A DNA stretch of 63,322 bases, filler included, from Folioceros fuciformis (Eukaryota): assembly GCA_049999805.1 (NCBI GenBank). It is 8 parts of 8 records of this genome, joined end to end, with 100 filler letters (N's around TTAATTAATTAA, not from the genome) between each part and the next. Parts side by side here need not be neighbours in the genome. Positions count along the whole stretch, not along the records: positions 15,342 to 28,873 come from JBNGIO010006025.1; 7 more parts are not named here. One strand, 5' to 3'. The position numbers were made by a program, and so were the translations under genes. Shown in pieces: positions 2,619 through 37,477 of this stretch. Under the pieces are notes generated by a model, which did no database searches, was not told the DNA's origin, and worked only from the letters and a program-made list of their open reading frames with translations. Positions within the stretch are counted from its first letter, which is position 1. Every line of letters starts with the position of its first letter.

Positions 2619-3350
2619 TTAATCATGCTTAACAACTACCTCCCATGACCTTCTTTGAGTTAGTGGGAGCACTTCTTCAAGAAGAAGCCACAAGAGGTGG
2701 ACCTAAGCATGGGAAACAGCAAGCACTCTACACCTCAAATAAGGGTAGAGGAAATAAACCATACCCTAGAGGCAAAAATACTACACCTGTTGCAGGGAGC
2801 TCACAGGGAGCTTCCTCACAAAAGAAACCCAAAAAGACCGGGAAATGCAACTGGTGCAAAATTCCTGGCCATTGGGAAAACGAGTATCGTAAAAAGCAGG
2901 CTGGCATACCTCGCAAGGAGGGGGCAATGCGAATACTGAAACACACATCGTAGTAAAGAAGCAATCCTCCCCTTCTGCCCTGACAGTAGGGCTAAGGGAG
3001 TTTGATCAACCTCTAGTCTTTCCCACATGCTTACATGCAATAGCGGAGTCTAGACCATTTCAAGAGTGGTACTTAGACATAGGTGCAACAACGCACATTT
3101 GCTTTGATAGCAGTGCCTTCGCCACCTACAGGCAAGTAAAGGATCAGTTTGTCCATTTAGGTGATGACAAGGCATTGGTATCTCCAGGTAAGGGCACAGT
3201 GTTCCTTCCTGTTCCTTCAGGGCTAAAATTGTCCCTTACCAATGTTTACTATGTGCTTGGAATGACTAACAACCTCATTTCTGTCAGGCAATTAAACATA
3301 GACAACAATAGTCACATTCTGTTTACCACTACAGAGTGTTAGATCCTAGA
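2619..3350 (+). pseudogene. Copia gag C-terminus and protease fragment
   Basis: GALLQEE, decayed knuckle CNWCKIPGHWENEY, WYLDIGATTHIC, NLISVRQL; frameshifted. Confidence 0.85.
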
Positions 3351-3864
3351 TATCCCTTCACCACCACGTATAGGTTTGGTAGGGAAGGGATCCACTTGTT
3401 CTTCAACTTGAGGTTCCTTCCCTACGTAGGGTGAGGATGTTCCCTTCGTAGGTAGGGAGGGTCCCTAGTGCTCCCTTCGTAGGTAGGTTCCCTATGCCTC
3501 CTCTCGTAGGTAGGTTCCCTACCATTCCCACCCACTGTCGTAGGTAGACAGCCTACCCCATTGCCGTAGGTGGGGTGTCTACCATATAAGTACCTTCCCT
3601 ACTTACGTGAGTATCTTCCATTTTCCCCACATAGGTGCTCTCTCTACGTATGTAGGTAGACATCCTACTATGTAGGTATCTTCTTATTCTAACCTACTAG
3701 AATAGAACTAAAAAACTCCATAAAAACCTTCACTAGTCGATCACTACCTACTATGGGCACTTGCCCCAAAACCTACCTTCCACATGCCTCCCTTCGAACT
3801 ATTCTGAACAAAAAGAAACCAAGTTAGACTTTCCTAGACTGATTACCAAGCTTTTCCGTTCCAC
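3351..3864 (-). mobile_element. Deleted fragment related to the 23961-28240 element, lying where the host Copia integrase is missing
   Basis: 3351-3450 is the reverse-complement homologue of ~27080-27175; 3745-3784 is homologous to the 23961 terminus (…TTCCACA); host RT resumes at 3865. Confidence 0.7.
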
Positions 3865-5342: not shown

Positions 5343-5669
5343 TGTAGGATCACTAGAGGAGCATGGTGGAGGAGAGGAGAAGAGGAGGCAGAGAGGAGAG
5401 GAGAAAAAGAGGTCACATTGAGAGTGGTTGGCAAGGGAGCTCAAGGGGGTATTTATACCCTCTAGAAGAGCTCCCTAGGAAGCTTCACAAGAAGCTCACA
5501 AGAAGCTGCGCAAGAAGCTTCCTACAGATTAGCTTAAGCTAATCTAAACTAATGATACTTAACTAGACACTAATCTTAGACTAAACACATTAGTCTAAGC
5601 ACATTAACTAGACACTAATCTTAGACTAAACACATTAGCCTAAGCACATTGGGCTTTAATAACCCTACA
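5343..5669 (-). repeat. 3' LTR (family A, 327 bp) of the Copia at 5712-8507
   Basis: TGTAGG..CCTACA termini; preceded on minus strand by PPT AAGTGGGAGGT (5670-5680); near-identical to 55473-55844 and related to the LTRs at 19537 and 22093. Confidence 0.92.
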
Positions 5670-8507: not shown

Positions 8508-8607
8508 NNNNNNNNNNNNNNNNNNNNNNNNNNNNNNNNNNNNNNNNNNNNTTAATTAATTAANNNNNNNNNNNNNNNNNNNNNNNNNNNNNNNNNNNNN
8601 NNNNNNN
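8508..8607. other. Artificial contig spacer 44N-TTAATTAATTAA-44N
   Basis: Identical linker with stops in all six frames recurs at 15242-15341, 28874-28973, 36217-36316, 40784-40883, 46557-46656 and 60584-60683. Confidence 0.98.
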
Positions 8608-13250: not shown

Positions 13251-14960
13251 AGAACAACTGGCCTGCCACGTGGGATCCTGTCCAAGTGGGATCCTGTCCA
13301 GCTTGGGCCTCTGGGAAAGCAGCGGCAGTAGGCTGGCGGACCGGCTGTAGGTGGACAAGCCATGACGGCCCGACTAGCCGGTAGGCGAGTTCGAGGCGGA
13401 TTAAGGGGCTGGCTAGGTGGAATCCAGGCAACGGCCTGACTGGCTGTCGTAGCCAGGCAGTCGCCCGGCCTGTTGGCAGCGGGATGGACCAAGATGGCAG
13501 GCAGCTAGCGGCGGCAGTGGGGCTGGGTGGCTGGCTGGCCGACTCCGGAGCCGGGCTGGCTGTGGCTAGTCCAACCCGGCACGGCCAGGCCAAGCAGGCT
13601 AGTTGCTGGCGGATCCGAGGAGGCCTAATCCAGGCCAGGCCCAGCTGCTGGAGATCAGGTAGGCTGGCTGGTGATGGCAGCTCCGGGCAGGCACAGGCGT
13701 TCGGTGGGCAGACCAGAGCCGGTCAGGTGAGGCTGGGCTGAATCTAGCAGGCAAGAGCGGATCAACCAGGGGCGGCGCTGGATTCGCCTATGCTAGCTGG
13801 TCGATTCGGGGGGCCAGGAGGGGAGCTGGCTAGCAGGAGAGGCCCCAGTTGGGGGCAGGCGCTCCGGCGGAGGCAAGCCGGAGCGGATCATGCATGGCAG
13901 CTGGCCAAGTTGGGCTGCTAGCAGGCAGGCCGCCTGGCTTGCACAAGCTAGCTGGGGGGGACTTAAGCTAGGCAGCCAGGCCAAGCAAGCAGGTAGCCGC
14001 TGCAAGCGGGCAGCCAGGGCGATCGCAGTGCCGGGTGGACAGGGTTGTTGGCTGGCGTGCGAGTTTGGATCAAGGCAGGAGGCCAGCGTGTGGCCTCTGT
14101 GCTGGCGGTCTAGCTAGTGCTGAAGGCTGGTTGCACGGGAGGTGGGGCTCCAGACGGTTGGGGCTGGATTCGGAAGCAGGCTAACTGGCCAGAATCCTGC
14201 AAGGAGTCAGGCACGCAGGCAGGTTGGCCAGATCCAGGCCAAGAGGCTGGAGGTGAATTTGGGGCGGAGCAAGGACGGTGCCTTGCCGGATCACCAGGCA
14301 ACGCTGGCTAGCTGAAGCAGCAGACCCACAACAGGCGGGCTGGGCCGCGGCCAGGCAACCAAGCAAGGCAGGCTTGCCAGTCGACTCCAATCGGCTTGCT
14401 AGCTGGCCAGATCCGGAAGGTAGGTAGGGTGGCTGGTTGGCAACGAATCTAAGTCTGGCCTGGATTGCGTTTAGTAGGCTGGACCGGGAAGGTTGGTTGG
14501 CCGGATCTGGCCAAGCATCTAGCAGGCGCGGCGCAGGTGGCCTTTGGGCAAGCGGCCTGGTTGCTAGGCTAGCCGATTTGGCCGAAAGATCCGGAAGGCT
14601 AGAGGCAAGCCGCCGGGGCCGCATAGGGAGGCCGGTAGGCTGCCTAGCGGCAGTCGGAGCCAGGCCAAGTGGGTAGGAGGAGGCCGGATCGCCAAGGTGG
14701 GCAGTGGCCGGTCCAGTCATAATCCATGCCGCGCAGCCAAGCAAGTGGTGGTATCCGGACTAGCTGACCAAGCGAGCTAGGTTGTAGCTAGCGAGTGAGC
14801 AGGTTGGATCAAGATTGGCAGATCCAGGTGCTGGCTAGGGCACGGCTGGCAGACCAATCGGGGGCAGGATGCGTCTCTTGTGACTCTGGAGGAAGCATGG
14901 GCTGGACCGGGGTGGAACAGCAGCCGGGTCGCAGTAGGGAGGAGGACGGCTGGAATGGGC
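13250..14960. repeat. GC-rich degenerate repeat tract (GGCTGG/GCCAG/CCGGAT-type units)
   Basis: Abrupt compositional shift from the flanking pol/gag sequence, many short reiterated motifs, only low-complexity ORFs. Confidence 0.7.
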
Positions 14961-14963
14961 ACC

Positions 14964-15241
14964 TGTAGAGGGAAAAATTATTCGCGAACCCCTTTTTGAG
15001 TGACAGATTTGGTGGATTTTGGTTTTTTTGTGTGAAGTGAAGGAGAAAGCGGCTTGGGTTGAGGATAAAACCAAGGTATTTATACCCAAAGTCTCCTTGG
15101 GCCATGGTACTTTGGGTGAATCGGTGGCCAGACCAAGTGTATGGGGGTGGTTGGTTGTCCTTGGCCTTTGGCGGAGAGGGGGGGGTACCGCGAGGTCTAT
15201 ATATGCACCCTCCCCTTAAAAATAAGAAATAAGAAAGGGGC
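14964..15241 (-). repeat. Putative LTR 3' end (…TTTTTCCCTCTACA) with TATA-like motif
   Basis: Reverse-complement homologue of 16560-16828; GGGTATAAATACC at ~15075-15087 on minus strand. Confidence 0.6.
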
Positions 15242-15341
15242 NNNNNNNNNNNNNNNNNNNNNNNNNNNNNNNNNNNNNNNNNNNNTTAATTAATTAANNN
15301 NNNNNNNNNNNNNNNNNNNNNNNNNNNNNNNNNNNNNNNNN

Positions 15342-16235
15342 GCTGTCTCGCTTCCCCTTCTGGTGACATGCCCACCAGTCCGTCTCCTTTTGGCAGGAGT
15401 CCTCTTCCCTGTCCCCGCCTTCCTTTTCTGCTTGGTGGGGGTTTCCTCTTCCGAACTGTCCGTGCCTCCCGACTCCCAGCTGCTGGAGTCAGCCTCCTTT
15501 GGCTCTAGGGGTTTCCACTTGACTTCCCTTAGCGGCTTCCACATATGCAAGGATGCAACCACCTCCACTTTAGGCAAGAGGTTAGCATAGCAGTAAGTAT
15601 GCACAAGGAAAGGGGAAATCATCGAAGGCCGAGGAGAGGCTGAGGCCAAATTCTGCCTCTCCTCGTTCATCCTATCATAAAGGATTCTTCCCCAGTCCAC
15701 CTTGCTGCCCTTGATGACCTCGTGCACAAACAAGAGCATCTGGTTAGAAAGATAATCCTGCTTCCGAATCTGCAGGAAACTTAGAAACCACCTCGCTAGG
15801 CCATCAACGGGCCATGTCCCGAATTAGCCACCCATTGGCCTCTCGTCCTGTGCCAGTTTTGAACAGCGCTGCAGCGGCTACTGCGGTGCTGCGCTTCTTC
15901 AGGGACTCCAGCACGAGGACACCTTCTTCCCCCTAGCCGCGCCCGTAAATGCGCCGCACCAACTCGAGGTTCCAGTCCTGAGGCCATCCTTGGATTCCCT
16001 CTTCGCGGGCTGGCACCCTCATTCTCTGAGCACACTCCCTAACCAGTTGCGTAGCTGCGTGGTTCCACCTCTAGGTCATGAACCCGAGGCCTAGCTCGTC
16101 GACTAGCCCTCGAGCTCTGACCCTCCAATGCTCCATGTTTGGCCAGAAGGCCAAATCGATACTCGGGGAAGGAGGTCCCTCCTCCTCCCCAATCGCCGTC
16201 ACTCCCATGAGCGGCGCCGCAACGGTCCTCATCAT
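15342..16235 (-). pseudogene. Retrotransposon accessory ORF, N-terminal part, decayed
   Basis: LGLGFMT*RWNHAATQLVRE…DYLSNQMLLFVHEVIKGSKVDWGRILYDRM…SPFLVHTY; near-identical to 50743-50994 and homologous to 24596-27126. Confidence 0.75.
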
Positions 16236-16559
16236 GCTTGGTCGCCTGCACGCTCCCGATCGCCGCCACTCTCTAGCGCCTGCTGATCACCCATCTTCCG
16301 CTCCGCTGCAGTTGCGCCCGCTTCACTCCTGGTCAAGGTCGCACTCCACTTCTACTTCCGCTCCCGCTCCTCGACTCGCGGTCACGCTCCTGTTTGAATC
16401 CCGACTAAGTCCCCCTGACTCACCAAGGGTTTTATACTGGCCGTTCCCATTCCACTACAGCCCGTTGCCCTTCCACGACGGTGGTTCAACTTCCACTACC
16501 GTCGCTGAGTCACAACATCCCGATTTTTCTAGCTTAAGTCCACAACTACCTTTGCCTAG

Positions 16560-16828
16560 GACCCTTTTCTTTTTTTGGGGGGGGGGGTGCATATATAGAC
16601 CCCTTGGTACCCCTTGACCACCAAAGGCCAAGGACACTCTCGCTCACACCCATCCTTGGTCATGTTGCTCAGTCCAGTCAAAATACCAAAGTCCAAGGAG
16701 ACTTTGGATATACATACCCAAGTCTTATTCTCAAGGCTATGCCGTTTCACTTGCACTTTCAAAAAAAAATCAAAGCCTGCGTATTCTGTCTCTCAAAATG
16801 GGAGTTCTGAAAGTTTTTTCCCTCTACA
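16560..16828 (+). repeat. Putative LTR 3' end, second copy (…TTTTTCCCTCTACA)
   Basis: Homologous to 14964-15241; terminus lies ~600 bp upstream of the oppositely oriented accessory ORF. Confidence 0.6.
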
Positions 16829-16952
16829 GGTTGCTATATGAACAGTCACTTAGAAAGAATTTAAACGATTTTGTACTCTCATTTTATTGTTCTGTTTTAT
16901 GCTTTTGCTATTCTCTCGCGTCCTCTCATGTTTTGCACATGGTATCAAAGCC
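16829..16952 (+). promoter_or_regulatory. Remnant 5' LTR end plus tRNA-iMet PBS (TGGTATCAAAGCC, 16940-16952)
   Basis: …GCACA followed immediately by the canonical plant PBS. Confidence 0.85.
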
Positions 16953-16983
16953 ATGCTCTGTTTCTTAATACAATTCCTGGAAG

Positions 16984-17573
16984 ATGCAGAGAGTGGGTGG
17001 TTCAACTAGATGTCCGAGTCGTTGTGGGATCTCGAGACACTCCTAGCAAGCAAGACACCCACCAAGACAAACGGCACCGCCACAAATCAATATTGATACG
17101 GTGCTGAACATCTATGAATAGAACTACCCCACTCATTGGCTGCAGAGGCTTGCTGAATCACGTAGCAGAAGGGGAGCATCTGATTTTCATTTAAACAAAA
17201 ATCGAGAGGTTGATCACCTCTACAGAGAGCGTTGTTACAAGAGAGCCAAAACGCAACAGCCTACAACAACAAAGGCCAAAGTTAGCGTTAGCCCCTGCAC
17301 TGGATTTGGAAGAGGATTCGGCATGAGGATAGAATCTCTTCTAATTAGAGTTTAACAATTGCTATCATACGTAATTACAAACCAGGAATTATTGAAGAAC
17401 AGAGTTCCGACACGAAATCCTAAATTGAGCAAGCAGTCGCTGAGAGCACACAAGAAATCTCAAGAGACATCAATGACGTATATGATTTTCTGAAATTGAG
17501 TGACTTGAGGCTTCAGGAGCGAGAACAGGGCTGCCCTCATTCAGGATCAAGCTCGATTGTTCGAGCATTGTGA
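16984..17573 (+). pseudogene. Extra ORF between PBS and gag, copy 1, decayed
   Basis: Manual translation gives DTVLNIYE*NYPT, LLIRV*QLLSYVITNQELLKNR and QEISRDINDVYDFLKLSDLRLQEREQGCPHS, which align to the ORF at 33691-34281. Confidence 0.8.
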
Positions 17574-19536
17574 ATCTTCCACTGCTGCAAAGCGGGGGTC
17601 ACACACGCGCAGGAGTGCTCCTCCTGCATCCTGATATGAATCAGTGCATTCTTCCCCTACACCTCTTGATTAGACAGCATTCTTCAGCACACATTGGTCC
17701 ACTTGTACCTGTCGCTTTAGTAGACAGTCATGACGGTTAGGTTTTTGCTTTTAACCTAATTTTCAAAAAGGCTTGTCATGAACCGTTATCCAAGTTAGGG
17801 TTTGCGGGCATGGACACGACCTTTCACAATAGGCATGCTCGAACGGCATGCTAAGGAGCTCAGCAGGAGCTGATCCTAGCAATCCTGGCTAGCATTTTTT
17901 CCAGCTGAGCAACCCAGCACTCCATTCCTACATGTATTGGTTAGTGTTTTCTACAAATCTAAGTGCGGTGCATGAATGAAAACTTAGCTGTATTAGGAGA
18001 AACCATAGTTCTTCTCAATCGTCTAGTTTTTCATGTCCGTTGAAGCCCAGTTGAACACCCTCATTAATAACTTTAACAATCTCAAGTTACAACTTGCAAA
18101 CCCACTACTCCAACCACCCATCATGGCTGCCCTCTTCTACATCTTACACATCATATGTCAAAGGCAAGGACCGCTTCAGTGGGACTGGTTACCAGGTCTG
18201 GAGAGTCCGAATGAAGGTTGTTCTTGTTGCCAGAGGTGTTTGGACAAGTGTTGGTGGGAGGTTTCAGAAGCCTTACCCCAAAACAAAGCCGGATGAATAC
18301 GCTAAGTGGGAATACCACAATAGTGTGGCCATGGCTTTGCTCATCAATGCTTTAACTATAGACCTTGTCCCTGATGTTGAATTCTCGACATCGGCCAAGG
18401 AAATTTGGGATCAATTGGAGACCACCTACCACTCCACAAACATGATGTTACTATCAGGCGTCAGGATGTAATTCTACTCGTTGAAAATGAAGGAAGGAGA
18501 GAAGATAGCAACTCACACAAGCAAGTTTCGGCAATTAAGAGCCCAGATCACGTCGTTGATTGGCAACAAGATGCCTGAAGTCGAGGCTGTGTCCCAGCTG
18601 CTCATCAGCCTCCCTCCTTCATACCAGAATTTCATCACCAGCCAAAATGCCTCCATCAAACCTAGTGCAACTGCTGCCAACGCCCCCACTATTGAGGAAG
18701 TGATTGGAGCACTCTACCAGGAAGAGCAAGAAAGGCTGCTTCATGGCTCTGCTGTTTCTAAAGCAGCACAACCCGAGAAGGCCTTGGCTGTGAATTTTAG
18801 ACCTCCTAAAGGCAAGTCTAAATTCCGAGGGGGAAACCAAGGTGGAAGCTCTTCTGGTCGATCTGAATCTGCCAGCCCTTCCACCAAACGTTCCGGCACT
18901 TGCAATTGGTGTGGAACTCCTAGCCACTGGGCACGAGAGTGCCGCAAACGCAAGGCGGGTGAGCCACAGAAGCAGCCACGTGCCAACGTTGCTGTAAAAG
19001 AGAAGCAGAATGTTGACAAGGCACCAGTAAAAATCCTTACCGTTTGCTTGTCAAGTTCTCTTCACAATGATAGCTGCTGGTATCTTGACTCTAGAGCTAC
19101 AACACACATCTGTAAGGATAGGGAGTTGTTCTCCACCCTAGACCTTGTGCATGTCCATGACAAGGTGCTGCTAGGTGATGAGCAAAGTAAGTCCAGCTTG
19201 CACATAGAAGGCAAAGGCACTTATGTCTTCTGACTGCATGACAACACAGATCTCATGTTAGAAGATGTGTTGTGTGTACCCATCATGGCCAAGAACCTCA
19301 TGTCCATGAGTAGGCTGATGCAATTACGTACCTTTTGTATGCGTGCTGACTTCAACCACTATTCGTTCTACAGGAAGGCATACCCTGAAAAATGTGTCTT
19401 CAAAGGCATACTAGATCATGGCCTTTACAGATTGAATATAGTGTGTCGCCAACCACTTACTCCCAAGCATGCTACACACTCCCCTGCCACACAAACGCTT
19501 AGTGCTAAGCAGGAGGCAGTCCTATGGCGTGCTAGG

Positions 19537-22378
19537 TGTTGAAAGATCGCTCCAGGAGCTACATGGTGAAGGAGGAGAGGAGGAGGCAAGGAGGAGAGGA
19601 GAAAAGAGAGGTCACACTCTCATAATAGAGTCTCTCGCTAGCAAGGGAGCTCAAAGGGGTATTTATACCCTCTAGAAGAGCTCCATAGGAAGCTTCACAA
19701 GAAGCGCGCAAGAAGCTGTGCAAGAAGCTTCCTGCAGATTAGCTTAACCTAATCTAAACTAATGATACTTAACTAGACACTAATCTTAGACTAAACGCAT
19801 TAGTCTAAGCACATTCAGCTTTAATAACCCTACAAGTCAATTATCCAATTAGAGAATAAGTGACTCTCCACGGCTGTCAGTTGTGCAACACAGATCAGAA
19901 GGAAGAAGAGATAAGAACATCTCCATCGTCAACAGAGTTCACATCATCATGCTTGTTACTCGGAGTTGCCTTGTCGCTCTACTTCTTCTCCTTTCCTTTA
20001 TCCTTCTTGAACTTCTCGCAGTCCTTCCTGATGTGACCCTTCTTGTGACAATGGTAACACTCAACATTGTTACGACTACGAGATTTGCTACGGGAAGAAC
20101 TTCGCTCCTTGTACTTCTCCTTTGAAGTGGACCTTTCTCTCACCATGAGGGCATTGGAACCTTTCGAAGGTTCCATATTCTTCCTGTTTACCTCCTATGT
20201 TAACAGGCTACCTTCTACATTTACAACGGTAAGACCACTAGCAGGAGCAAAATTACTCAGAGCTGTACGAAAGGTGTCCCAGCTCTCTGGTAATGTGACC
20301 AACAGAAACATAGCTCTCACGGAATCTGGGAACGAGATACCTGAAAATGAGATGAGAGCTGGCTGAAAATGAGATGAGAGCTGGCTGNNNNNNNNNNATG
20401 AGATGAGAGCTGGCTGAAAATGAGATGAGAGCTGGCTGAAAATGGTATTAAACTCATTCAGATGATCGGACATCCTCGTCCCTTCCTTCATCTTCTAGTC
20501 CACTAGCTGTTTCAACTAATACACCTGAGAAGCCGCACTTTGCTTTTCATATAGGTCACACAACTTCTGCCACAGCTCGAAACTTGTGGTCTTGTCTTTC
20601 ACGTTGAAGTAGACCGACTTGGACAATGTTAGCATGATGGTAGAGCTAGCAAGCTCATCTAGATCCTGCCACTCATCCTGAGTCATGCTAACGGGTTTCA
20701 CTCCTAGCAACTTGATGGGCTTGATCTGCTTCTTCTATACTAGAACATTATACACTTGTTCTTTCCAGAACGGGAAGTTAGTACCATCTACCTTCTCGAT
20801 ATTGAACATGACGTTTTCTGAGGACGCCATGTTTTAAAATCGATGCAAATGAAGCAAAAGGCTAGAAAACAGTTGGAATGTAATGTAGATTTTAAAAGTT
20901 ACCCTCACAACGAAACGGCTGTCCACAATTTAGTCTTTGGTCGTTCACAATTGGAATGTCTCCCGTCGTCTGATCGAGATCCTGACTTCCATGGTCGGGG
21001 GCAGTTCAGCGCCTGTTTGGCGCACTCGGTGCCCGGCCAGATCCTCGCCCACTGGCGCCCTGCTGGCGAACGGCTGCAGCCAGGGTGACACCTTGCTGGC
21101 GCCTTAGTGGCGCCCCACTCGTGCCTCGATGGCTCCCAATTGGCGCCTCGCTAGCGCCCGGGTGGCGCGCAGGTGGCGCCCCACTAACGCCCAAGTGGCG
21201 CCTCGTTGGCGCTTGGGAGGCACCCCAGTGGCGCTCGGGTGGTGCCTCGTTAGCTCGTAGGTGGCACCCCATTGGCGCTTCGTTGGCACCCAGGTGGCGC
21301 CTCGATGGCGCGCCCTAGCCGGCAGCTGCGCTCTAGCCATCGCCCTAGACATCGCCCTAGTCGGCGGCTGCGCCCTAGCCATCGTCCTAGCCAGTGGCTG
21401 CACCCTAGCTGGCGGCCTAGACGATGCCCTAGCCATCGCCCTAGCCAATGCCCTAGTCGCCGCTCTAGCCTACGCCCTAGCCCCAGCCAGCGCCGGCCTA
21501 GAGCCCTAATCGCCGCCCTAGCGGCCTGGCGCCCTAGTGCCCCTGGCCGGGGCTGGCTCCCCTAGCGCCCCCGATCGGGGAGGCCGAGGGTTGGTGCCTC
21601 GGCAGGGGGCCCGGTGCCCCGCGCAGCGGAGCGGCCGGGTCAGGTGCCCCCCCTGCTGGGGTCTGCTCGCTCTCCGCGGGCTGGTCGGGGCTGGACCAGC
21701 GCCCAGGGCCCCGGCACCCTGGCCGCGGCCTGCGACTGCGGCGGTCGAGGTTCTGACGGCACCCGGGGCTGGGGGGCCTTTCATCCGCCCCGCCTAGCGG
21801 CGCCTGCGCCCCGGGAGGCCTGGCGCCTCAGGTGCCCCGCTCACCGGGCGCCCTGCGCCTCTTTGCTGTGGCGCTTGGTGTGGATGGCGCCCTGGGGTAG
21901 AACCCCCTCGCGGTGCGGCAGCAACCTCCCGGTGCCTCGCGCTCTCGGCACCCCGAGCTCCAAGCTCCCTCACTCTCGGAGCCTCGTGCTCCTCCTAGAT
22001 GCCCTTCCTCACGGGCCTTTGTCCGTGGCACCTGCAAACATGAGCATCTCGCTTCACAATTTGAGCTTCACAACCTGCGCTTTGATACCAATTGAAAGAT
22101 CGCTCCAGGAGCTACATGGTGAAGGAGGAGAGGAGGAGGCAAGGAGGAGAGGAGAAAAGAGAGGCCACACTCTCACAATAGAGCCTTTCAATAGCAAGGG
22201 AGCTCAAAGGGGTATTTATACCCTCTAGAAGAGCTCCCTAGGAAGCTGCGCAAGAAGCTTCCTACATATTAGCTTAAGCTAATCTAAACTAATGACACTT
22301 AATTAAATACTAATCTTAGACTAAATGCATTAGTTTAAACGCATTAGTCTAAGCACATTGGGCTTTAATAACCCTACA
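19537..22378 (-). mobile_element. Nested gag-only Copia derivative with both family-A LTRs
   Basis: TSD CTAGG (19532-19536 / 22379-22383); LTRs 19537-19834 and ~22093-22378; PBS TGGTATCAAAGC 22079-22090; decayed gag ~19880-20830 with CYHCHKKGHIRKDC; no pol. Confidence 0.92.
21000..22030. repeat. GC-rich tandem-repeat leader (GGCGCC and CGCCCTAGCC units)
   Basis: Reiterated TGGCGCC motifs ~21015-21310 and (C)GCCCTAGC(C) motifs ~21310-21570, located between PBS and gag. Confidence 0.85.
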
Positions 22379-24595
22379 CTAGGTTAGGCCACATCAATAA
22401 AGCCAAGCTAATTGACATGCCTGTTACTAAATGCCAAAGAGAACCCTTGCCGAAGTGCTTCAAAGACTTACCTGTTTGTGAGTCTTGCATCTTGGCAAAG
22501 CAAAAGGAATCCCCATTTCCTATTGCCCCTGCACATAGAGCTATACAAGTGCTGGAATTAGTTCATGCTGATATATCTGGAAAGATACAAGAGCCGTCCT
22601 TAGGAGGATCTCATTATTTCTTCACCCTAATAGATGACTTCAGCAGATACACATGGACGTTCCCAATGCAGCTTACAAGTGATACCTTCAGCATTTTTAG
22701 AGACTAGCTCTTTACAGCTCAAAGACAATCTGGCATGCTTCTGAAAATACTAAGGATGGATAATGGATCGGAGTTTGTAAACTCATCTTTTGATGAGCTG
22801 CTCCAGGAACATCGCATCCTTCGCCAGCTAACAGTTCCCTACACACTACAACAGAAAGGTGTATGTGAGAGCAAAAATCAGACACTGCTCGGCATGACCA
22901 GAAGCATGCTCATTTGGGCAGGCTTACCACAAGGGTATTGGGCCGAGGCAATTGTAGCAGCCACATACATCTTGAACAGGGTTCTCACGAGCTCTGTCCC
23001 ACAAAAGACACCATATGAGGTGTTCTGGAACATGAGACCTAGCTTGTTACATCTAAGGGTATTTGGCTCATGTGCATTTGCATATATCCCCGTTGAAAAA
23101 CGAAGGAAGCTGGAACCTCGTGCTCAAGGACTGATTTTTGTCGGTTATAGTGAGCATGTGGAAGCCTATAAGCTGTACAACCTATCACAAGACTGTATGT
23201 TGCTTGCCCGAAGTGTGACTTTCGTGGAGCCTAATTCACCAGTTTCTAGTACAACACAAGGTGTTCTACCCATGACAGCAAATGACTATGACACCACATC
23301 AGCTGATCTTGCTGAATATCCCTTGGAAGACATGGAACTGGTTGATATTCCACCTATCATCCCTACAGCTGCTGTTGTTGAAGCACAGGAGCATGACCTG
23401 GAACCTACAGTGGACCTACAGGCCGACCACCAGTCAGATAACGATGCACAAGATGACGAAAACGAGAGAGTTGCTGCAGAACAAGATGATGGAGCTGAGG
23501 ACGATTTTTTGGTTGATGACTTACCTGTCCAAGATCATGAGGGGGCTGAAGCTGCAGACCTAGCTGATGACCTGGACCTGTTTGTCAATGAACCAGTAGA
23601 GGACCCACCTGCACCTACCTTTGAACCTAGACGATCAACTCGCTATCGTCCACCTCCTTTCGAATGGGCAAAGCCTAGATACCAATCTGTGGACTTTAGG
23701 ACCAACCTCGCCTTTAAGACCACTTTGCCGGATGAGCCCACTAGCCTACAGCTGGCCTTCAATGGGCCTGAATCTAAACAATGAAAAGCTGCTGTCGAGG
23801 ATGAGTACCAGTCTGTTGTGAAAAATAAGACCTGGATCCTGACAAATCTACCACCAGGGCGCAAGGCCATCTCCTGCAAGTGGATTTTCAAACTTAAGTT
23901 AAATGCCAAGGGTGAGGTGGCTAGATTCAAAGCTAGATTGGTTGCACGAGGGTTCATGCATGTGGAATGCGGGTTTTTGGCAAGTACCCGCAGTAGGTAG
24001 GGAGCGGCTAATAACATTTTCAGTTTTGTTTGGTCTTGGTTTGGTAGGTTAGATGAGTGGCAATAATAAGGGGTAGAATTGTAAAGAAGTTACCTTCTTT
24101 TGGATGGCTACCTATAGGGAAGTATGGCCACATAGGGAGGATATCTATGTGGGAGGTAGTACCTAAATAACAAATATAGTTGTGAAGGGCAAGCTACCTA
24201 CAGAAAAGGGGACACCTGTGTAGAGTATCTATTAAGGGTAGTTACTACATATAGAAGTATACCTACGACAAGAGGGTATTTAAAGGGGTCCCTACGTAAG
24301 GTGTCCCATCAACGAAGGGTGCTCACCTCCACGTAGGGAACTACATCTACCTACATAGCGGGGAACTAGGAAGTAGCTGTGTGACAAGACACCTATGTTG
24401 GGGACCTACTTGTTGTGACCAAGCGGACACAGAGCAAGAGAAAGGGCTTTGCTATGGTGAGAGCCATAGGGAGGAACGATGCAGGGGACGTGAAATCAAC
24501 TCGACAGAAGCTGGGAGCAGTTGCCTATGGAGGTAGGGGTATAAACTTGCGTAAAGGAGGGCAATCGACGTTCCTGGGGTCTTGTTCCATCAACT

Positions 24596-27126
24596 ATGGC
24601 ACGGACCTCCAACAACACTCAAGTGGCTTCCGGCAGTAGGGGACGACCCCCGAGGGCAGCTAGCTCTCCCCGAACCAATGTTCCGTCCTTTTCCTGCTTT
24701 GGGGGCCAACTGAACTCAAGGGATTTGATAGACCTACGGACTTCGGCATGTGACGCAAACATCCAGCTTGACTGGATATATGGTAGACACTGGTCGTATG
24801 TTCATGAAGGCTTGGTGCAGGAGGGCTATACCAACCTACAGCAATCGAAGGAGGAGTTGGAAGCCCTACCTAAACGAAGCGCGAGGACTGACCCTCGTTG
24901 TTGGACTGTCTAGAGCATCCGACAAGTGTACGGTAGGTCAGAAGAGGAGAGCGATGGTATTGGGATCCTGGGGCACTAGAATTGCTGTTGGGAGGGGAGC
25001 TAGCAAGAACTAAGATGATCAAGGATCTCAAATGGCGGTTGTTCACTAAGGTGGTTCTTGGATTGGTGAACTATCAACGCACCTCATATTTCAGCAATGC
25101 TTTCCTCCACTTCCTTTGGAGAGTGACTCAAGGAGCAAAGCTAGACAAGGGGTTAATTATGTATGAGGCGTATACCTACCACGGGGAGAAGTTGCTCAAG
25201 CTGAACAGTAGGGAGGGGGGAGTGCACTTCCCTGCTACCTATCGACTTACTTGGTGCACTTATGGAAGACAAAAGGGTTGTTAACACTAGAGGAGTTGGA
25301 GGAGGCGGAACAACCTTTTGTAGTTGTCCCATTGCAAGGGAAGGCTTTTATTTCCGATGGAGTGTCGACCCCTCTTACGAATGAGGAGTCCCCACTTGAT
25401 TCTGAATCAACCATGGCAGCCTATGATGAGTCTGATGAAGATGACACCCCATTGATACGGAGACCCAGGGAGCAGCAAAGGGACCGAAGGCTACCATCAG
25501 TCACCACCCCCACAGCCCTAGATTCCACCCCAACTGAGATGGAGTCAGTGAGGGATCTTGGACCAAGCCAGCCAATAGTTGAAGTAGGGTACCAGGTAGG
25601 GTATTTGGCGATGACACCAGTAGTGCAAGCACAGAGTGGAGCACCAAATTTGGGGAGAAGGAGCCCAATGAAATGGGAGGCAGCCCGGGGAGCACATGCC
25701 ACGAGCCAAGGTAATGACACTTCATTGGGAGTGTGGAGCAACATCATTCGGTGTGGCCAACAGCTACAAAACATCAATTGGGGAGAGGCCCGTGTAATGA
25801 TTGCAGCCCTACTACAGAAGGACATAAGCCGGGATGCAAACTAGGCACGACTAGAATCCAAAGTGCAGGAATTGGAAAAGGAGCGAGAACAATATCTCCT
25901 CAAGGATGGTGAGCAAAGGCAAGCACTGGAGAAGTTGACCCAGCAGGTGAGCACGTTGTAGACTTCCCAACAAGGTTTATCACATGAGATCATTGCATGT
26001 CGAAGGGACCTCGCCCAGTCTGAGGAAACTAGGAAGGTGGTGGAGGAACAGCTACGGGAACAAGTCTACCTTGCAAAGGATTTACAAGGCAAGCTAGATG
26101 AGTTGGAGGCACAGAATGCTAAAGTGAACTAGGAACTCCAGCAGCGCCTTGAAGCAGGGCAAGGAGAGCGAGTGGAGAGGGAACAATTGACCATCCAATT
26201 AGAAGTCCTTCGGCAGGAGAAAGCACAACAAGAAGCTGAGCACCAGACCAAGATTCACAAGATGCTAGTGGTTCGAGCTCGTAGGTTTCGTGCTGACTAT
26301 GCCTACTTGACGGGGTGCATGACCAAGCTTCATGCAACTCATCAAGAAGACCTTGACCTACAGTTGAAGGTAGGGCCGATGGAGGTTGAATGGGATATCT
26401 ACAAGAGTAGATGCGAAGGTGGGGATTGGGTTGTTGACATGGATACCATAGATCTAGCTCAACAGAATCGCAACCTCCACCGACACCAACGTCTACTCGC
26501 TCATCTTAAGGAACTGGTAGCATTGGTAAGGCGAAGGTATCTTGGGCCACATGATGACGACCGTGAGGCCTTGGAGACAGTGCCCCTTGTCAATAGGATC
26601 GACTCCAGTCTACGTGCAAGTGTAGGAGAGGAGAGGAGAGAAGAGAGGGTGGTATTGGTGATCACAACCATGAAAACAATACACATCACCACTGTCTTAC
26701 TATGGAGGTCCGAGGTCTCCATTTAAGTAGTACATTTAGGGCTACACAACTTCCAGGTTCAATATGGGATAATCTACACTATCCTAAGTTCACTAATAAC
26801 TAGAACTAGTCTAGTATGAACCCAACTAGGATAACTAACACCACATGAGTTTAGCTCATATAGAGCTTGATAACTCAACACCCCTACCAACAGACTTTCA
26901 AGAGAGCAGCAGTATGGACCTAGAGAGCTCGCAATGGGAACCTGAGGAGCTGCTATGGGCTAGGAAGAGCACGCAACAAGGGGTAACTACTCTCGTACGG
27001 AACCTACCTACGAGAGGAGGGGAAGGAATGGTAGGGACCCTACCTACGGAGGGAGCAACAGGTACCCTACCTATGGAGGGAACATTTCCACCCTATGTAG
27101 GGAAGGAGCCTCAAGTTGAGGAATAA
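24596..27126 (+). pseudogene. Accessory ORF, ~740 codons after removing the nested LTR; conserved N-domain, acidic linker, coiled-coil-like region
   Basis: Collinear ORF pieces at 24596, 24982, 25251, 26172 and 26886-27126; SYFSNAFLHFLWRVTQGAKLDKGLIMYE aligns with 15342-16235. Confidence 0.78.
26588..26880 (-). mobile_element. Solo LTR (293 bp)
   Basis: TG..CA with TSD CCCCT (26583-26587 / 26881-26885); shares GTTCAATATGGGATAATCTACACTATCCTAAG with the LTRs at 54980 and 60360. Confidence 0.88.
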
Positions 27127-28602
27127 GGGGATCCCTGCCCTACCAAACTTGTAGGTGGTGGTGAAGGGATAGCCCAAGAGAACCATACAGAGGATGGTAC
27201 GGTGAAAGCTTGTGGATCCAAAAGAAGGCGAATCCCAATAATGGAGGGGGGCCCAGTGGCTCAGCCTTCAGACTCGGCCTCCCTTCAGGAGCCATCCTAA
27301 CCACACCTTTTTGAAAAGGGGGTCAACAATTCTTCTATGGCAGCACCGACAGTCCTAATCTTCATCGGCTCGCACTGCCCTAGCAATTATTGGTAGGACT
27401 TAGCCTCTTGGTAGGTATGCGTAGTTAAAGCTGGCCGCGGCTAGTGGTAGGTAGGAAGCCGTCTGCCATCCTATATAAGTAGAATGAAGAACTTGAGCCA
27501 GAGGGCCCCGTTCTTTGATTGTAAGTGTTTCGTGACGAATATAGAACCAATTTTCATAAGCCTGCGTGGACATCCTGGCAGAAGGAGGAGCTGCGAGTGC
27601 CCTTTCTGTTGCCGATCACAAAGGTCCTTGTGATGTCTGGTTGGGAGTCTGGAACGTAGGGAAACACGGAGTTGGATTATGTAGAAGGTGTTGTGAGGAG
27701 ACTTGTGGGGAAAGGTGCTGGGTGTAGGTAATTGGAAGTTGGTAGGGGGAGGTACTTGGGCCCTTCCAAGTGAAGGAATGGTGCCTTCCTACTGACTGGA
27801 GGTGTTGAAGGTATGCGCTAGGGAAGGTTGAATGTCGAGGGTGAGCAATAAACACAGTTGGAGAGAGCGGAGCAGGCTCGGAGGAAAACTTGGTCGCTGG
27901 GTGTAGGGAGACGAGCAGCTAGATTGTGGGTAGAGGAAGGTGTTGTAGGGAGCCTTATGAGGAAAAGGTATTGAGTGTAGGGAGGTAGAAATCGGTAGGG
28001 CCTCCAGAGGTACTGGGGCCCTTGTAAGTGAAGGAATGGTGCCTACCTACTGACGGGACGTGTTGTAGGATTGGTAGGTACGTGGTTGGGAGAGTTGACT
28101 ATTGTAGGGGAGCGATAGACGTAGCTGACCAGGCTTAGAGGGGAGCGATTCCGGGGAAGCCTACAACGACCGTGGGATTGATGTGGCCATAATACATGTG
28201 AGTGGGTGCCTGGTAGGGATACCACACCCGCTTGCCCACAATGCAAGTTGAGGGTTTGGACTACCAAGAAACATTCTCACCTGTCATGAGAACAGAATCC
28301 ATTCGAATCCTCCTTGCTTATGCCACAGAACATGACCTTGATCTACACCAAATGGATGTTTGCACAACGTTCTTGTATGGAGCCTTAGATGAGGAGCTTT
28401 ACATGCTCCAGCCTAAAGCTTATGAAGACCCTGCACACCCAAACAAAGTGCTCAAGCTCTTGAAGTGTATATACGGCTTGAAATAGAGTGGGAGAGTGTG
28501 GTATTTAACCACGCATCTCTACTTAATCAACATCGACTTTGTGCAAAGTGTAGCAGATATGAATGTCTACAGGCTTACTCGTGGCTCTTCTCTTGTCCTC
28601 CT

Positions 28603-28803
28603 TGACAATCATCAGATGCGATGTAGTCACGGTAGTAGGCCCAAAGATAGTTGAATACATTATGGCAGTTACACACTCCGGTGTCATGTGTACGCGATGG
28701 ACGGTTATTGCCGTTACTAGGTCACTTAACCTAAGACCTGTACGCCTATCTATATATGTATAGTTAGATATTTATATATATATACCTATTCTCACTCCCA
28801 CTT
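28603..28803 (-). repeat. 3' LTR plus PPT of another element interrupting the host RT
   Basis: TGACAA..TTCTCA (28603-28794) followed by CTCCCACTT (PPT complement); host RT breaks just before its YVDD motif. Confidence 0.7.
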
Positions 28804-29019
28804 TGGTTTTCAAGGTTAGTGGGTGCTAGGTTATAGAGTCTGTATGTATGTTAGCTAAGAAACGAAACGCGAGNNNNNNNNNNNNNNNNNNNNNNNNNNN
28901 NNNNNNNNNNNNNNNNNTTAATTAATTAANNNNNNNNNNNNNNNNNNNNNNNNNNNNNNNNNNNNNNNNNNNNAATTCGATTCTCAATTCTTTCCTACGC
29001 TATCGATCCTATTTACGCT

Positions 29020-36216: not shown

Positions 36217-37477
36217 NNNNNNNNNNNNNNNNNNNNNNNNNNNNNNNNNNNNNNNNNNNNTTAATTAATTAANNNNNNNNNNNNNNNNNNNNNNNNNNNN
36301 NNNNNNNNNNNNNNNNGCGTGCACCGCTTATGCCACGAGCAATCCATCACCTCATCTGTAGAGCACAACTTGTTTAGTTAAGGACCTCACATCACCTGTG
36401 CAACTATACCTAGATGAAGCATCACTAGACAGCAAATCAGGTTAGCAGCAAGTCATTGACACGCACCTTTTTAGGCAGTAGCTAGGTGCACTCAGCTTTG
36501 AAGGCGAGAAGGAGCTCCACATCTGTCATGGATGTTCTATCATGGAATTCAGGCAGTTCCCTTTTTCCCTAGTTGTAGCGCGCACACCTCTCCCCTCACC
36601 TGGGCGCTCTTTGGTTTTCACGGATCTGCCACAGATGGGTGTGTTATGCGCCACGTTTTTGGCGGTGTCAGGATCAAGGGAGCAGGTATAACAGCGAGGA
36701 TAAGCTCAAATACGTGGACAACAAGCTTTAGGTTTGAGCTCCAAGCCATCGCTCGTCTAGATCAGGCGCAGCCCTATTACCCGAATCCGCCGTTGCCATG
36801 TACTAGCAACAAATCACAACCATGGAACAGTCCAGGGACATTAGTGAGACTGTAAGTGGACAGGGTTGATTGCTCAACGTCTCTCTGCTCAACTTCACTA
36901 GCTTGGACAGCTCACACTTGGCATTTCACTACTAGCACGGATAGCTCACACTTGGCGTTTTATGTTTTCTATTCATATGGTTCTATTTAGCATTACTCAA
37001 TATTATCGAGTTAGGTATGAGAGAGGATATTAAGATATATTTGTTTAAATATCTTTACAGCCCTAACTGGATAGGGATTGAAATCTCAGTTATTAGATAA
37101 ATACTTTTAGGGTTCTTCCACACCAAAAATGGTTACAACACTCTCTTGTTTATAAGACACTTTCTTGACTATAAGGTATATACTCTTCGTGCATTGTTGT
37201 CTCCTCTCGACTTGTGTCTGGTCGTGTGCAGGTAGATTTGTTTTACGAAGATCTGTCCACAAGTCGCAAGTGGTGACCTGAACCGTTGGAGGGTAGGAGT
37301 GATAGTCCTAACCTGTCTACAGTTGGCAGCGTCGAAAGTTGAGTAGTACCTATGACCAGAGTAAAAGGCTTGAGATAGGATCGAGAGGAGGGTTTACAGA
37401 AGAAAGGATGGATTTTTGATGAGGACTGTGTGGCCGCTTTAAAGTTGCGGGGACGCCGCTTGATGGCGTCCCGTGAC

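What the first reader, a model, noticed from the sequence alone, without database searches (positions are those of the whole stretch)
23961..28240. Giant solo-LTR-like insertion (~4 kb) that encodes its own large protein
Seen: exact ATGCA TSD, TG..CA ends with ~14-bp imperfect inverted termini, no terminal direct repeats, no gag, pol or transposase motifs, and one decayed ~740-codon ORF starting ~635 bp inside the left end. Known: TG..CA with a 5-bp TSD is the retroviral-type integrase signature, and accessory ORFs of Tat/Athila-type gypsy elements normally sit in the internal region. Inference: either an LTR that itself contains a gene, or an independent non-autonomous unit mobilised by an integrase-like enzyme.
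Basis: partly seen in the sequence, partly recalled or inferred. Interest (0 to 1): 0.8.

Follow-up and report, generated by a model that had tools for sequence, protein, structure and literature searches.

The report
Giant solo LTR carrying a gene
A 4.3-kb repeat inserted retrovirus-style into another jumping gene is most likely a lone long terminal repeat that unusually carries its own, now broken, protein gene with no known relatives.

Summary
Window 23961-28240 (4280 bp) starts with TG and ends with CA. Its ends form an imperfect inverted repeat (12 of 15). It is flanked by an exact ATGCA duplication and splits the reverse-transcriptase domain of a Ty1/copia element. Contigs from public runs of the same organism bridge the empty site and skip exactly 4285 bp (4280 + 5). 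More than 1300 contigs per run match the element, so it belongs to a multi-copy family.

The element has no terminal direct repeats, no PBS, and no gag, pol or transposase match. A sense ORF starts at 24596.

New here: a 293-bp copia-type solo LTR (26588-26880, duplication CCCCT) sits inside that ORF. Without it the ORF runs in frame to 27126, about 744 codons. It contains 4 premature stops where chance would give about 40. It encodes a disordered linker and a long helical, probably coiled-coil, region. No search found a relative.

The element's only strict TATA box (27472) and its only sense-strand AATAAA (27847) lie 3' of the ORF. That fits a U3-R-U5 layout with the gene in U3.

Best reading (about 0.6): a solo LTR of a giant-LTR retrotransposon whose U3 carries a gene. 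Paired copies around gag-pol could not be looked for, so an LTR-less mobile unit is not excluded.

The parts
23956..23960 (.). Left copy of the 5-bp target-site duplication, ATGCA.
   Evidence: The empty-site joint 23957->28243 skips 4285 bp.
23961..28240 (+). The 4280-bp TG..CA element, read here as a solo LTR. It was 3982 bp before the nested insertion.
   Evidence: It belongs to a multi-copy family: 1330 contigs (X1) and 1485 contigs (X2) were laid at 80% identity or more.
23961..23974 (+). 5' terminal inverted repeat, TGTGGAATGCGGGT. The terminus is conserved in a diverged relative at 3768-3784 on the minus strand.
24060..24440 (+). 5' array of CCTAC-core motifs of the form CTACCTAYRG.
   Evidence: CCTAC plus GTAGG occur 54 times in the element, against 9.1 +/- 2.8 in 500 shuffles. 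Sequence.
24540..24545 (+). Weak TATA-like TATAAA, 51 nt upstream of the ORF's ATG. It is a candidate promoter for the ORF itself.
   Evidence: Sequence. It does not meet the strict TATA pattern used. Its role is inferred.
24596..24913 (+). ORF piece 1 in frame 2, from the ATG at 24596 to a premature stop at 24911-24913.
   Evidence: At 24911 and 24912 nearly all laid contigs read other letters (X1 depth 415.8 of 428.5; X2 660.6 of 660.6), so this stop is private to this copy (table 3).
24937..25213 (+). ORF piece 2 in frame 1. A frame shift lies between 24914 and 24977, and another lies at the G run 25210-25222.
   Evidence: At 25214 one X1 contig carries an extra letter and the X2 contigs do not (table 4).
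25215..26587 (+). ORF piece 3 in frame 0. It covers the end of the N-terminal domain, an acidic/Ser/Pro-rich linker and the long helical region. In-frame TAG stops lie at 25842-25844, 25959-25961 and 26130-26132.
   Evidence: The AF2 single-sequence model has long helices at residues 190-386 of P0001 and no confident structure at residues 32-171.
26583..26587 (.). Left CCCCT duplication of the nested insertion.
   Evidence: The joint 26582->26881 skips 298 bp, with 5 letters that fit either side.
26588..26880 (-). Nested 293-bp TG..CA element, a copia-type solo LTR antisense to the ORF. It supplies the false ORF end at 26726.
   Evidence: It shares a roughly 35-nt core and a similar start with the roughly 255-bp LTRs of the copia at 54979-60583.
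26881..26885 (.). Right CCCCT duplication of the nested insertion.
26881..27126 (+). ORF piece 4 in frame 1, in frame with piece 3 once the 298 bp are removed. The natural stop is TAA at 27124-27126. The last ~45 codons run through the second CCTAC motif array (26990-27110).
   Evidence: (ORF 26839-27126), frame arithmetic.
27472..27478 (+). The only strict TATA box in the element on either strand, within CCTATATAAG. It marks the proposed U3/R border at about 27500.
   Evidence: Its function is inferred.
27847..27852 (+). The only AATAAA on the sense strand. It marks the proposed R/U5 border at about 27870.
   Evidence: Its function is inferred.
27656..28069 (+). Two diverged repeat units of about 160 bp (27656-27811 and 27903-28069, 76% identical) in the GTAGG-rich 3' kilobase.
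   Evidence: (family D10).
28226..28240 (+). 3' terminal inverted repeat, ACCCGCTTGCCCACA.
   Evidence: In X1, 21 contigs run on past 28240 into unlike sequences with agreement 0.35 (table 7).
28241..28245 (.). Right copy of the target-site duplication, ATGCA.
22708..28486 (+). Host Ty1/copia pol. The integrase and SH3 domains lie at 22708-23781. The RT starts at 23785, is split at 23960/28241 and continues to at least 28486.
   Evidence: (rve, SH3_retrovirus, RVT_2).
3345..3784 (-). Truncated diverged relative on another contig of the window. It has the 5' terminus (71% over the first 92 nt) and a CCTAC motif array, followed directly by the equivalent of 26995-27171 (81%). The ORF body is absent.

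Best explanation
The element is a solo LTR. It is what remains after the two LTRs of one member of a high-copy LTR retrotransposon family recombined. That family has unusually long LTRs, about 4.0 kb before a later 293-bp copia solo LTR landed inside this copy.

The full element was inserted by a retroviral-type integrase into the RT-coding region of a Ty1/copia element. That step produced the ATGCA duplication and the TG..CA ends. This is shown.

The proposed layout is U3 = 23961 to about 27500, R = about 27500 to about 27870, and U5 = about 27870 to 28240. It rests on the single TATA box and the single sense-strand AATAAA, and is inferred.

U3 carries, in sense, an ORF of about 744 codons (24596-27126). 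The ORF has a weak TATA 51 nt upstream. Its product has an N-terminal part of about 230 residues, an acidic/Ser/Pro-rich disordered linker, a helical and probably coiled-coil region of about 200 residues, and a tail that runs into a motif array.

On this reading each LTR, solo LTRs included, could act as a self-contained transcription unit that uses the LTR's own poly(A) site. This resembles in layout the sag ORF in the U3 of the MMTV LTR, and is inferred.

In this copy the gene is dead: 4 premature stops, at least 2 frame shifts and one nested insertion. At least one stop is private to this copy, so the gene was open in its source.

The protein's function is unknown. My guess is an accessory or regulatory protein of the element, like the fast-evolving extra ORFs of Tat/Ogre/Retrosat2-type elements, possibly captured into a shorter ancestral LTR.
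For: Insertion.
- TG..CA ends, a 12-of-15 inverted terminus and an exact 5-bp duplication.
- An exact empty site in sister copia contigs that skips 4285 bp, plus three more bridging contigs per run.

Multi-copy family.
- 1330 of 883,303 records laid in X1 and 1485 of 1,277,711 in X2 (same sample), and 28 of 26,840 in X3 (another study).
- Cover in all 30 bins in X1 and X2.
- The 3' end at 28240 is followed by unlike sequence in 21 X1 contigs.
- The 5' terminus is conserved in a diverged copy at 3768-3784 on the minus strand.

Promoter and terminator motifs.
- One strict TATA box (27472) and one sense AATAAA (27847), both 3' of the ORF and in its orientation. There is no strict TATA on the other strand.

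Not a small two-LTR element.
- No terminal direct repeats and no iMet-type PBS.
- No gag, pol or transposase.

Length is in the published range.
- Ogre LTRs are 1.9-6.5 kb (PMC6431247, passages). Retrosat2, RIRE3 and RIRE8 have LTRs over 3 kb together with a lineage-specific extra ORF (PMC3485330, abstract and passages).

The ORF is not a chance frame.
- 4 premature stops against 40 expected.
- The stop at 24911 is private to this copy.

Solo LTRs form in this genome.
- The nested 293-bp TG..CA element with a CCCCT duplication is one.
Against: - No paired copy, PBS or PPT of this family was seen. The window has only one full copy and one 440-bp fragment, and no genome is held.
- The 21 X1 contigs that run past 28240 show no common PBS-like continuation (agreement 0.35). 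Contigs collapse identical junctions, so this is weak.
- CCTAC-core motifs cluster near the 5' end and their reverse complement GTAGG in the 3' kilobase. That arrangement recalls the subterminal repeats of TIR DNA transposons.
- A review of extra ORFs in plant LTR retrotransposons does not contain the phrases 'in the LTR', 'within the LTR' or 'inside the LTR' (PMC7264820). A related paper places such ORFs in the internal region (PMC11963269, passage). An ORF wholly inside an LTR would therefore be unusual.
- The TATA and AATAAA are motif matches only.
- Frame shifts at homopolymer runs may be assembly errors. The window is a chain of draft contigs.
Confidence: 0.6

Rival explanations
1. An independent LTR-less mobile unit. 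On this reading the element is a DNA element, autonomous or not, with short imperfect terminal inverted repeats and subterminal motif arrays. A DDE or integrase-like enzyme that cuts at TG..CA and makes 5-bp staggered cuts moves it as DNA. The ORF would be its own novel protein or cargo.
For: - A 12-of-15 terminal inverted repeat.
- CCTAC motifs near the 5' end and the reverse complement GTAGG in the 3' kilobase: 54 in total against 9.1 expected.
- Only single copies were seen.
- 21 different continuations past the 3' end.
- An ORF filling 56% of the unit, with good start context.
Against: - No transposase or integrase match in any ORF piece, and no relatives at all.
- From recall, no plant DNA-transposon superfamily combines TG..CA ends with a 5-bp duplication. 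Ginger elements have TGT..ACA ends and 4-5-bp duplications but are known from animals and other non-plant hosts.
- Short inverted termini are normal for LTRs. Retrosat2 has a 10-bp one (PMC3485330, passage).
- The TATA and AATAAA layout 3' of the ORF fits U3-R-U5.
Confidence: 0.15
2. A deletion or recombination derivative of a larger LTR retrotransposon. In the parent the ORF would have been an internal extra ORF, like ORF0 of Retrosat2 or ORF1 of Ogre. Most of both LTRs and gag-pol would then have been lost.
For: - Extra, lineage-specific ORFs upstream of gag-pol are known in long-LTR Tat-type elements (PMC3485330, abstract and passages).
- Deletion variants of this family exist: joints skip 165, 1522 and 298 bp.
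- A relative lacks the ORF body.
Against: - No direct repeat links the 635 bp before the ORF with the 1114 bp after it. The best direct match is 13 nt.
- No iMet-type PBS between the left end and the ORF.
- The same structure is covered in all 30 bins by over 1300 contigs per run. A derivative without R repeats, PBS and PPT could not have multiplied by reverse transcription (established mechanism, inference).
Confidence: 0.1
3. An assembly chimera, in which a repeat was mis-joined into a copia contig and no real insertion exists.
For: - The window is a chain of draft contigs joined by spacers.
- The best public runs hold only 0.29 of the stretch's sampled words.
- No laid contig spans the whole stretch.
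Against: - The exact 5-bp duplication, the TG..CA ends and an in-frame copia RT across the empty site are what a true integration leaves.
- The empty-site contigs skip exactly 4280 + 5 bp.
- The element and both flanks lie in one gap-free stretch, 20398-28873.
Confidence: 0.03

Closest known systems
LTRs of Ogre/Tat-lineage Ty3/gypsy elements, including Retrosat2, RIRE3 and RIRE8 of rice
   Same: They have very long LTRs: 1.9-6.5 kb in Ogre (PMC6431247, passages) and over 3.2 kb in Retrosat2 (PMC3485330). They have TG..CA ends with short inverted termini, high copy number, and an extra fast-evolving ORF with no homologues outside the lineage.
   Different: In those elements the extra ORF (ORF0/ORF1) lies in the internal region upstream of gag-pol. 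Here the whole ORF, start codon included, lies inside the terminal unit. No sequence similarity was found. Whether this family has a gypsy core at all is unknown.
The sag ORF in the U3 of the mouse mammary tumour virus LTR
   Same: A complete protein-coding ORF sits inside the LTR, upstream of the LTR promoter and in sense. [quoted passage not shown] The rest is recalled.
   Different: That is an animal retrovirus with an ORF of about 320 codons (recalled) and an unrelated protein. The likeness is in layout only. Membership is not claimed.
Ordinary solo LTRs, for example the nested 293-bp copia-type one at 26588-26880
   Same: TG..CA ends, a 5-bp duplication, a single copy without an internal region, and a multi-copy family.
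   Different: This element is about 14 times longer and 56% of it is one ORF.
LARD-type non-autonomous elements such as Sukkula of barley (recalled, not looked up here)
   Same: LTRs of about 4-5 kb without a recognisable gag-pol partner, and many solo LTRs.
   Different: As recalled, LARD LTRs are non-coding. A LARD has two LTRs around a conserved non-coding core, and that was not seen here.
Ginger DNA transposons (recalled)
   Same: TGT..ACA-type inverted termini and a 4-5-bp duplication made by a gypsy-like integrase acting on DNA.
   Different: They are not known from plants. They encode an integrase, and this ORF has no integrase match.

Membership tests
LTR of an LTR retrotransposon (solo LTR) | 5'-TG..CA-3' ends with a short inverted terminal repeat | tested here: met
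   The ends are TGTGGAATGCGGGT and ACCCGCTTGCCCACA, identical at 12 of 15 columns when inverted.
LTR of an LTR retrotransposon (solo LTR) | A 4-6-bp target-site duplication and a precise empty site | tested here: met
   ATGCA stands on both sides. Contigs skip exactly 4285 bp.
LTR of an LTR retrotransposon (solo LTR) | U3-R-U5 layout: a promoter, then a poly(A) signal, on one strand | tested here: inconclusive
   One strict TATA (27472) and one sense AATAAA (27847) are present in the expected order. These are motif matches only. No transcript ends are available, and no RNA holder is listed.
LTR of an LTR retrotransposon (solo LTR) | Other family members occur as direct pairs flanking gag-pol, with a PBS after the 5' LTR and a PPT before the 3' LTR | not testable with these tools
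   No genome is held. The window has one full copy and one fragment. Read laying returns no contig sequences.
LTR of an LTR retrotransposon (solo LTR) | A dispersed multi-copy family with the same termini at different loci | tested here: met
   1330 and 1485 contigs were laid. 21 different continuations follow 28240. A second 5' terminus lies at 3784 on the minus strand.
Complete non-autonomous LTR element (TRIM / LARD / TR-GAG) | Two terminal direct repeats (LTRs) within the unit | tested here: not met
   No direct repeat links the ends.
Complete non-autonomous LTR element (TRIM / LARD / TR-GAG) | A PBS next to the 5' LTR | tested here: not met
   No match with 2 or fewer mismatches to the tRNA-iMet PBS 12-mer on either strand. 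Other tRNA primers were not tested.
TIR DNA transposon | Encodes, or is related to a copy that encodes, a DDE transposase | tested here: not met
   Pfam found no transposase or integrase in any ORF piece. HMMER against 1.84 billion representatives gave 0 hits.
TIR DNA transposon | Terminal inverted repeats and subterminal repeats | tested here: inconclusive
   The TIR is 15 bp and imperfect. CCTAC/GTAGG arrays lie in opposite orientation towards the two ends. Both features also occur in LTRs.
Extra ORFs (aORF / ORF0 / ORF1) of plant Tat/Ogre/Retrosat2 elements | Lies in the internal region between an LTR and gag-pol, or between pol and the 3' LTR | tested here: not met
   The ORF lies wholly between the TG and CA ends of one unit that lacks internal LTR borders, a PBS or a PPT.
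Extra ORFs (aORF / ORF0 / ORF1) of plant Tat/Ogre/Retrosat2 elements | Sequence similarity to a known extra ORF | tested here: not met
   0 hits. These ORFs are known to diverge beyond recognition (PMC3485330), so this is weak.

The most novel reading that the evidence does not exclude
The unit is not an LTR. It would be a new kind of plant mobile element: a single-gene, LTR-less unit with TG..CA inverted ends and CCTAC/GTAGG subterminal arrays. It would be moved as DNA by an integrase-like enzyme that makes 5-bp duplications. Its orphan coiled-coil protein would be either cargo or a new mobility factor.
Probability: 0.12. Interest if true: 0.85.

Novelty: new variant of a known kind. Interest (0 to 1): 0.5.

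Why it matters
If the LTR reading holds, this family keeps a full-length gene inside its LTR. Each element would then carry two copies of the gene. Every solo LTR left after recombination would still be a promoter-gene-terminator unit scattered through the genome.

Published surveys of extra ORFs in plant LTR retrotransposons place them in the internal region (PMC11963269, passages). In my two phrase searches, the hits whose abstracts describe an ORF inside an LTR were MMTV papers. These searches were limited.

Such a family would be a natural system for two questions: how LTRs acquire coding sequence, and whether solo LTRs can express protein.

A relative that lacks the ORF body (3345-3784) suggests the gene was either captured into, or lost from, a backbone of about 1.7 kb. 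That makes gain or loss testable once a full genome is at hand.

If the LTR reading fails, the element would be a new class of plant transposon, which would matter more.

Tried and rejected
Searches of held collections
- Own-genome search: no genome is held.

Protein relatives of the ORF
- The search for homologous proteins with P0001 (near lengths), with the frame-1 piece (longer) and with the frame-2 piece (longer): none.
- Exhaustive HMMER with P0001 against 1.84 billion representatives: 0 hits at E 0.001 or better.
- Pfam: nothing above cut-off.
- PDB sequences: best E 0.44.
- ESM Atlas with two unbroken pieces: best scores 0.88 with low recognition, so no lead.
- tblastn of the ORF pieces against the window: only the fragment at 3399-3528.

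Structure
- AF2 without an alignment: mean pLDDT 46. No fold search was made, because such a model gives meaningless matches.

Metagenome scans
- With the protein and with a 22-nt family motif: nothing.

RNA and other features
- Rfam at E 0.1 or better: 0 matches.
- tRNA genes: 0.
- Tandem Repeats Finder: only three trivial short arrays.
- Bacterial promoter and terminator scan: not relevant to a eukaryote and at or below shuffle level.

Expression
- No RNA holder is listed.
- Run X5, whose RNA label is a guess, gave 5 small contigs on 24891-25015, 26757-26789 and 27587-28089. This is too weak to use.

Ideas rejected
- A polypurine tract next to the relative's 5' terminus at 3785. The flank is copia RT-coding sequence, so this is an insertion site, not an internal region.
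- The gypsy RT at 10004-11692 as the parent core. It has no nucleotide similarity to the element and lies on another contig.

Not seen
- Supplements of the cited papers were not opened.
Full report
WHAT IS THERE

Ends and duplication. The sequence reads ..GGGTTC ATGCA | TGTGGAATGCGGGT .. ACCCGCTTGCCCACA | ATGCA AGTTGAGGG... Pattern searches and a script place the element at 23961-28240, 4280 bp, with ATGCA at 23956-23960 and 28241-28245. My blast coordinates were shifted by one base, and this is corrected here. The two ends align as an inverted repeat with 12 identical of 15 columns and one gap.

The host. It is a plus-strand Ty1/copia element. ORF 22708-23781 carries rve and SH3_retrovirus. 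The frame 23785-23960 ends ..ARLVARGF. The frame after the element starts MQVEGLDYQETFSPV and matches RVT_2 positions 44-124 at E 2e-23.

Assembly context. The window is a chain of draft contigs joined by N44-TTAATTAATTAA-N44 spacers. The element and both flanks lie in one gap-free stretch, 20398-28873.

IS IT A REAL INSERTION OF A REPEAT FAMILY?

No genome is held for this window. Six public runs of one coded organism were listed, and the best two (one sample) hold 0.29 of the stretch's sampled words. I laid four runs on 23700-28500 at 80% likeness or more.

- Contigs laid: 1330 of 883,303 records in X1, 1485 of 1,277,711 in X2, 28 of 26,840 in X3 (another study) and 5 of 143,725 in X5.
- Cover: all 30 bins in X1 and X2.
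- Identity classes in X1: 214 contigs at 99% or more, 396 at 95-99%, 460 at 90-95% and 260 below 90%.
- Summed contig depth: 283-1441 (X1) over 24022-26597, against 56 in the left copia bin. The tool warns that this figure is no copy number.
- Empty site: one contig in each of X1 and X2 joins 23957 to 28243, skipping 4285 = 4280 + 5. Three more diverged copia contigs per run also bridge the site.
- 3' end: 21 X1 contigs run on past 28240 into unlike sequence (agreement 0.35).

X1 and X2 may be the sample the window was assembled from, so they are not independent of it. Together these results show a true integration of a member of a multi-copy family, with exactly the stated limits.

WHAT IT LACKS

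- No direct repeat links the two ends. This held for the repeat finder, blastn with word 9, and blastn of the 5' 635 bp against the 3' 1114 bp with word 7, where the best direct match was 13 nt.
- No site within two mismatches of the tRNA-iMet primer-binding 12-mer.
- No Pfam family above cut-off in any ORF piece.
- No Rfam match and no tRNA gene.

The sense ORF starts at ATG 24596, the 636th base, in the context AACTATGGC. A weak TATAAA lies 51 nt upstream.

It runs in frame 2 to a stop at 24911-24913, in frame 1 from 24937, and in frame 0 from the G run at about 25214. TAG stops lie at 25842, 25959 and 26130.

Read laying showed family variants that join 26582 to 26881, skipping 298 bp, with five letters that fit either side. 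In the sequence this is a 293-bp unit at 26588-26880 that starts TG, ends CA and is flanked by CCCCT on both sides.

On the minus strand this unit shares a core of about 35 nt, and a similar start, with the roughly 255-bp LTRs of the copia at 54979-60583. That copia's own polypurine tract and PBS are visible. The stretch also has by far the highest contig depth, 12,800-24,300. I read it as an ordinary copia-type solo LTR, antisense to the ORF, that landed inside the ORF.

Because 298 = 3 x 99 + 1, frame 0 before the insert continues into frame 1 after it. That frame is the 26839-27126 ORF, and it ends at TAA 27124-27126. The original ORF was therefore about 744 codons, or 56% of a 3982-bp unit.

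It holds 4 premature stops where the base composition predicts 40. Uninterrupted single-frame reads of the whole 843-codon span hold 18-53 stops on the plus strand and 33-45 on the minus strand.

At two letters of the stop at 24911-24913 nearly all laid contigs read otherwise: X1 depth 415.8 of 428.5, X2 660.6 of 660.6, X3 7.94 of 7.94. That break is private to this copy. At 25214 one X1 contig has an extra letter and the X2 contigs do not. This break sits in a homopolymer and could be an assembly error. For the three TAGs no row was among the 40 shown, and 496 rows were not shown.

Of those 40 rows, 21 are places where this copy has A or T and the others have G or C. Only 6 go the other way. 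That is the usual decay of a silenced repeat.

THE PROTEIN

No relative was found by any of these searches:
- Word-indexed searches with three pieces.
- Exhaustive HMMER with the 504-residue frame-0 part against 1.84 billion representatives, 0 hits.
- PDB sequences.
- The ESM Atlas with two unbroken pieces, best score 0.88 with low recognition.
- Two metagenome scans.

A single-sequence AF2 model is poor, with mean pLDDT 46. It shows long helices at residues 190-386 of P0001 at pLDDT 56-80 and nothing ordered at residues 32-171. I made no fold search on it. Pfam's only sub-threshold matches are mostly to coiled-coil-type families.

The picture is an N-terminal part of about 230 residues broken by the frame shifts, an acidic/Ser/Pro-rich linker, a helical and probably coiled-coil region, and a tail.

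OTHER ANATOMY

- Motifs. The CCTAC core and its complement GTAGG occur 54 times, against 9.1 +/- 2.8 in 500 shuffles. CCTAC lies mostly in the 5' 1 kb and at 26990-27110. GTAGG lies mostly in the last 900 bp.
- Promoter and terminator motifs. The only strict TATA box on either strand is at 27472 (CCTATATAAG). The only sense-strand AATAAA is at 27847.
- Repeats. Two diverged units of about 160 bp lie at 27656-27811 and 27903-28069.
- A relative. On another contig, a diverged copy at 3784-3345 on the minus strand has the same 5' terminus (71% over the first 92 nt) and a CCTAC array. It then passes directly into the equivalent of 26995-27171 (81%) and has no ORF body. It is cut off at a deletion that also removed the integrase region of its copia host.

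This relative shows that the terminus is conserved in the wider family. It also shows that a backbone of about 1.7 kb exists without the gene. Whether by capture or by deletion between the two motif arrays cannot be told.

INTERPRETATION

Shown: an integrase-type insertion of one member of a multi-copy family. The unit carries a once-open 744-codon orphan gene and was later hit by a small copia solo LTR.

Inferred: the unit is a solo LTR with U3 = 23961 to about 27500, R to about 27870 and U5 to 28240, and with the gene in U3. The reasons are as follows.
- The termini, the duplication, and the TATA and poly(A) order and orientation all fit.
- A unit of this size is within the published LTR range. 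Ogre LTRs are 1.9-6.5 kb (PMC6431247, passages). Retrosat2, RIRE3 and RIRE8 have LTRs over 3 kb with a lineage-specific ORF0 and a 10-bp inverted terminus (PMC3485330, abstract and passages).
- A unit without R repeats, PBS or PPT cannot multiply by reverse transcription on its own, yet the family is large.

On this reading the gene could be transcribed from its own weak TATA to the LTR's poly(A) site. It could also be reached by splicing from the genomic RNA. In layout this resembles the ORF in the MMTV 3' LTR (abstract of PMC2118998 in the listing; the details are recalled).

What speaks against the reading:
- No paired copy or PBS/PPT junction was seen.
- The opposed motif arrays recall subterminal repeats of DNA transposons.
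- The literature I could check places extra ORFs of plant LTR elements in the internal region. PMC11963269 says so in a passage. PMC7264820 has no occurrence of three 'in/within/inside the LTR' phrases. The two phrase searches returned, for an ORF in an LTR, MMTV papers and nothing I recognised from plants.

Odds: solo LTR with a U3 gene 0.6, LTR-less DNA-type unit 0.15, deletion derivative of an element with an internal ORF 0.1, assembly artefact 0.03.

VERDICT

The finding is a new variant of a known kind if the LTR reading holds. It is moderately interesting (0.5), and a single BLASTN against a long-read assembly would decide it.

That step is referred.

Noticed in passing
window 8508-8607, 15242-15341, 28874-28973, 36217-36316, 40784-40883, 46557-46656, 60584-60683; also 43081-43180 and 20388-20397: Seven 100-bp spacers of the form N44-TTAATTAATTAA-N44 (a stop-in-all-frames linker), one run of 100 N and one run of 10 N. 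The window is a chain of draft contigs, so neighbours across spacers need not be adjacent in the genome.
   Followed up: yes
window 26588-26880; 54979-55233; 60359-60583: A core of about 35 nt (GTTCAATATGGGATAATCTACACTATCCTAAGT on the plus strand) is shared by the nested 293-bp solo LTR and by the LTRs of a minus-strand copia. The stretch has the highest contig depth in the laid runs, 12,800-24,300. A possibly-RNA contig of run X5 also carries it. It looks like a conserved LTR motif of a very abundant short-LTR copia group.
   Followed up: partly
window 19539-22378: The same host copia carries a second nested element. It is bounded by direct repeats of about 300 bp (83% identical) around a GC-rich core. 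The repeat family recurs at 5341-5650 and 55537-55844, and those two copies are 99% identical to each other and inverted.
   Followed up: no
window 10004-15215 (- strand): This is the only Ty3/gypsy-type RT (RVT_1) in the window. Upstream of it lie GC-rich ORFs of 126-316 aa without Pfam matches, possibly gag or an extra ORF. It has no nucleotide similarity to the 4.3-kb element.
   Followed up: no
window 3345-3784 and 23961: Both copies of the family in the window sit in the N-terminal RT-coding region of copia elements, one in sense and one in antisense. Two cases are too few to call a target preference.
   Followed up: no
window 28177-28241: One contig per run (X1, X2) repeats the last 65 bp of the element after a 7-letter spacer. 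This is a small terminal rearrangement in some other copy (tables 5 and 5c).
   Followed up: no
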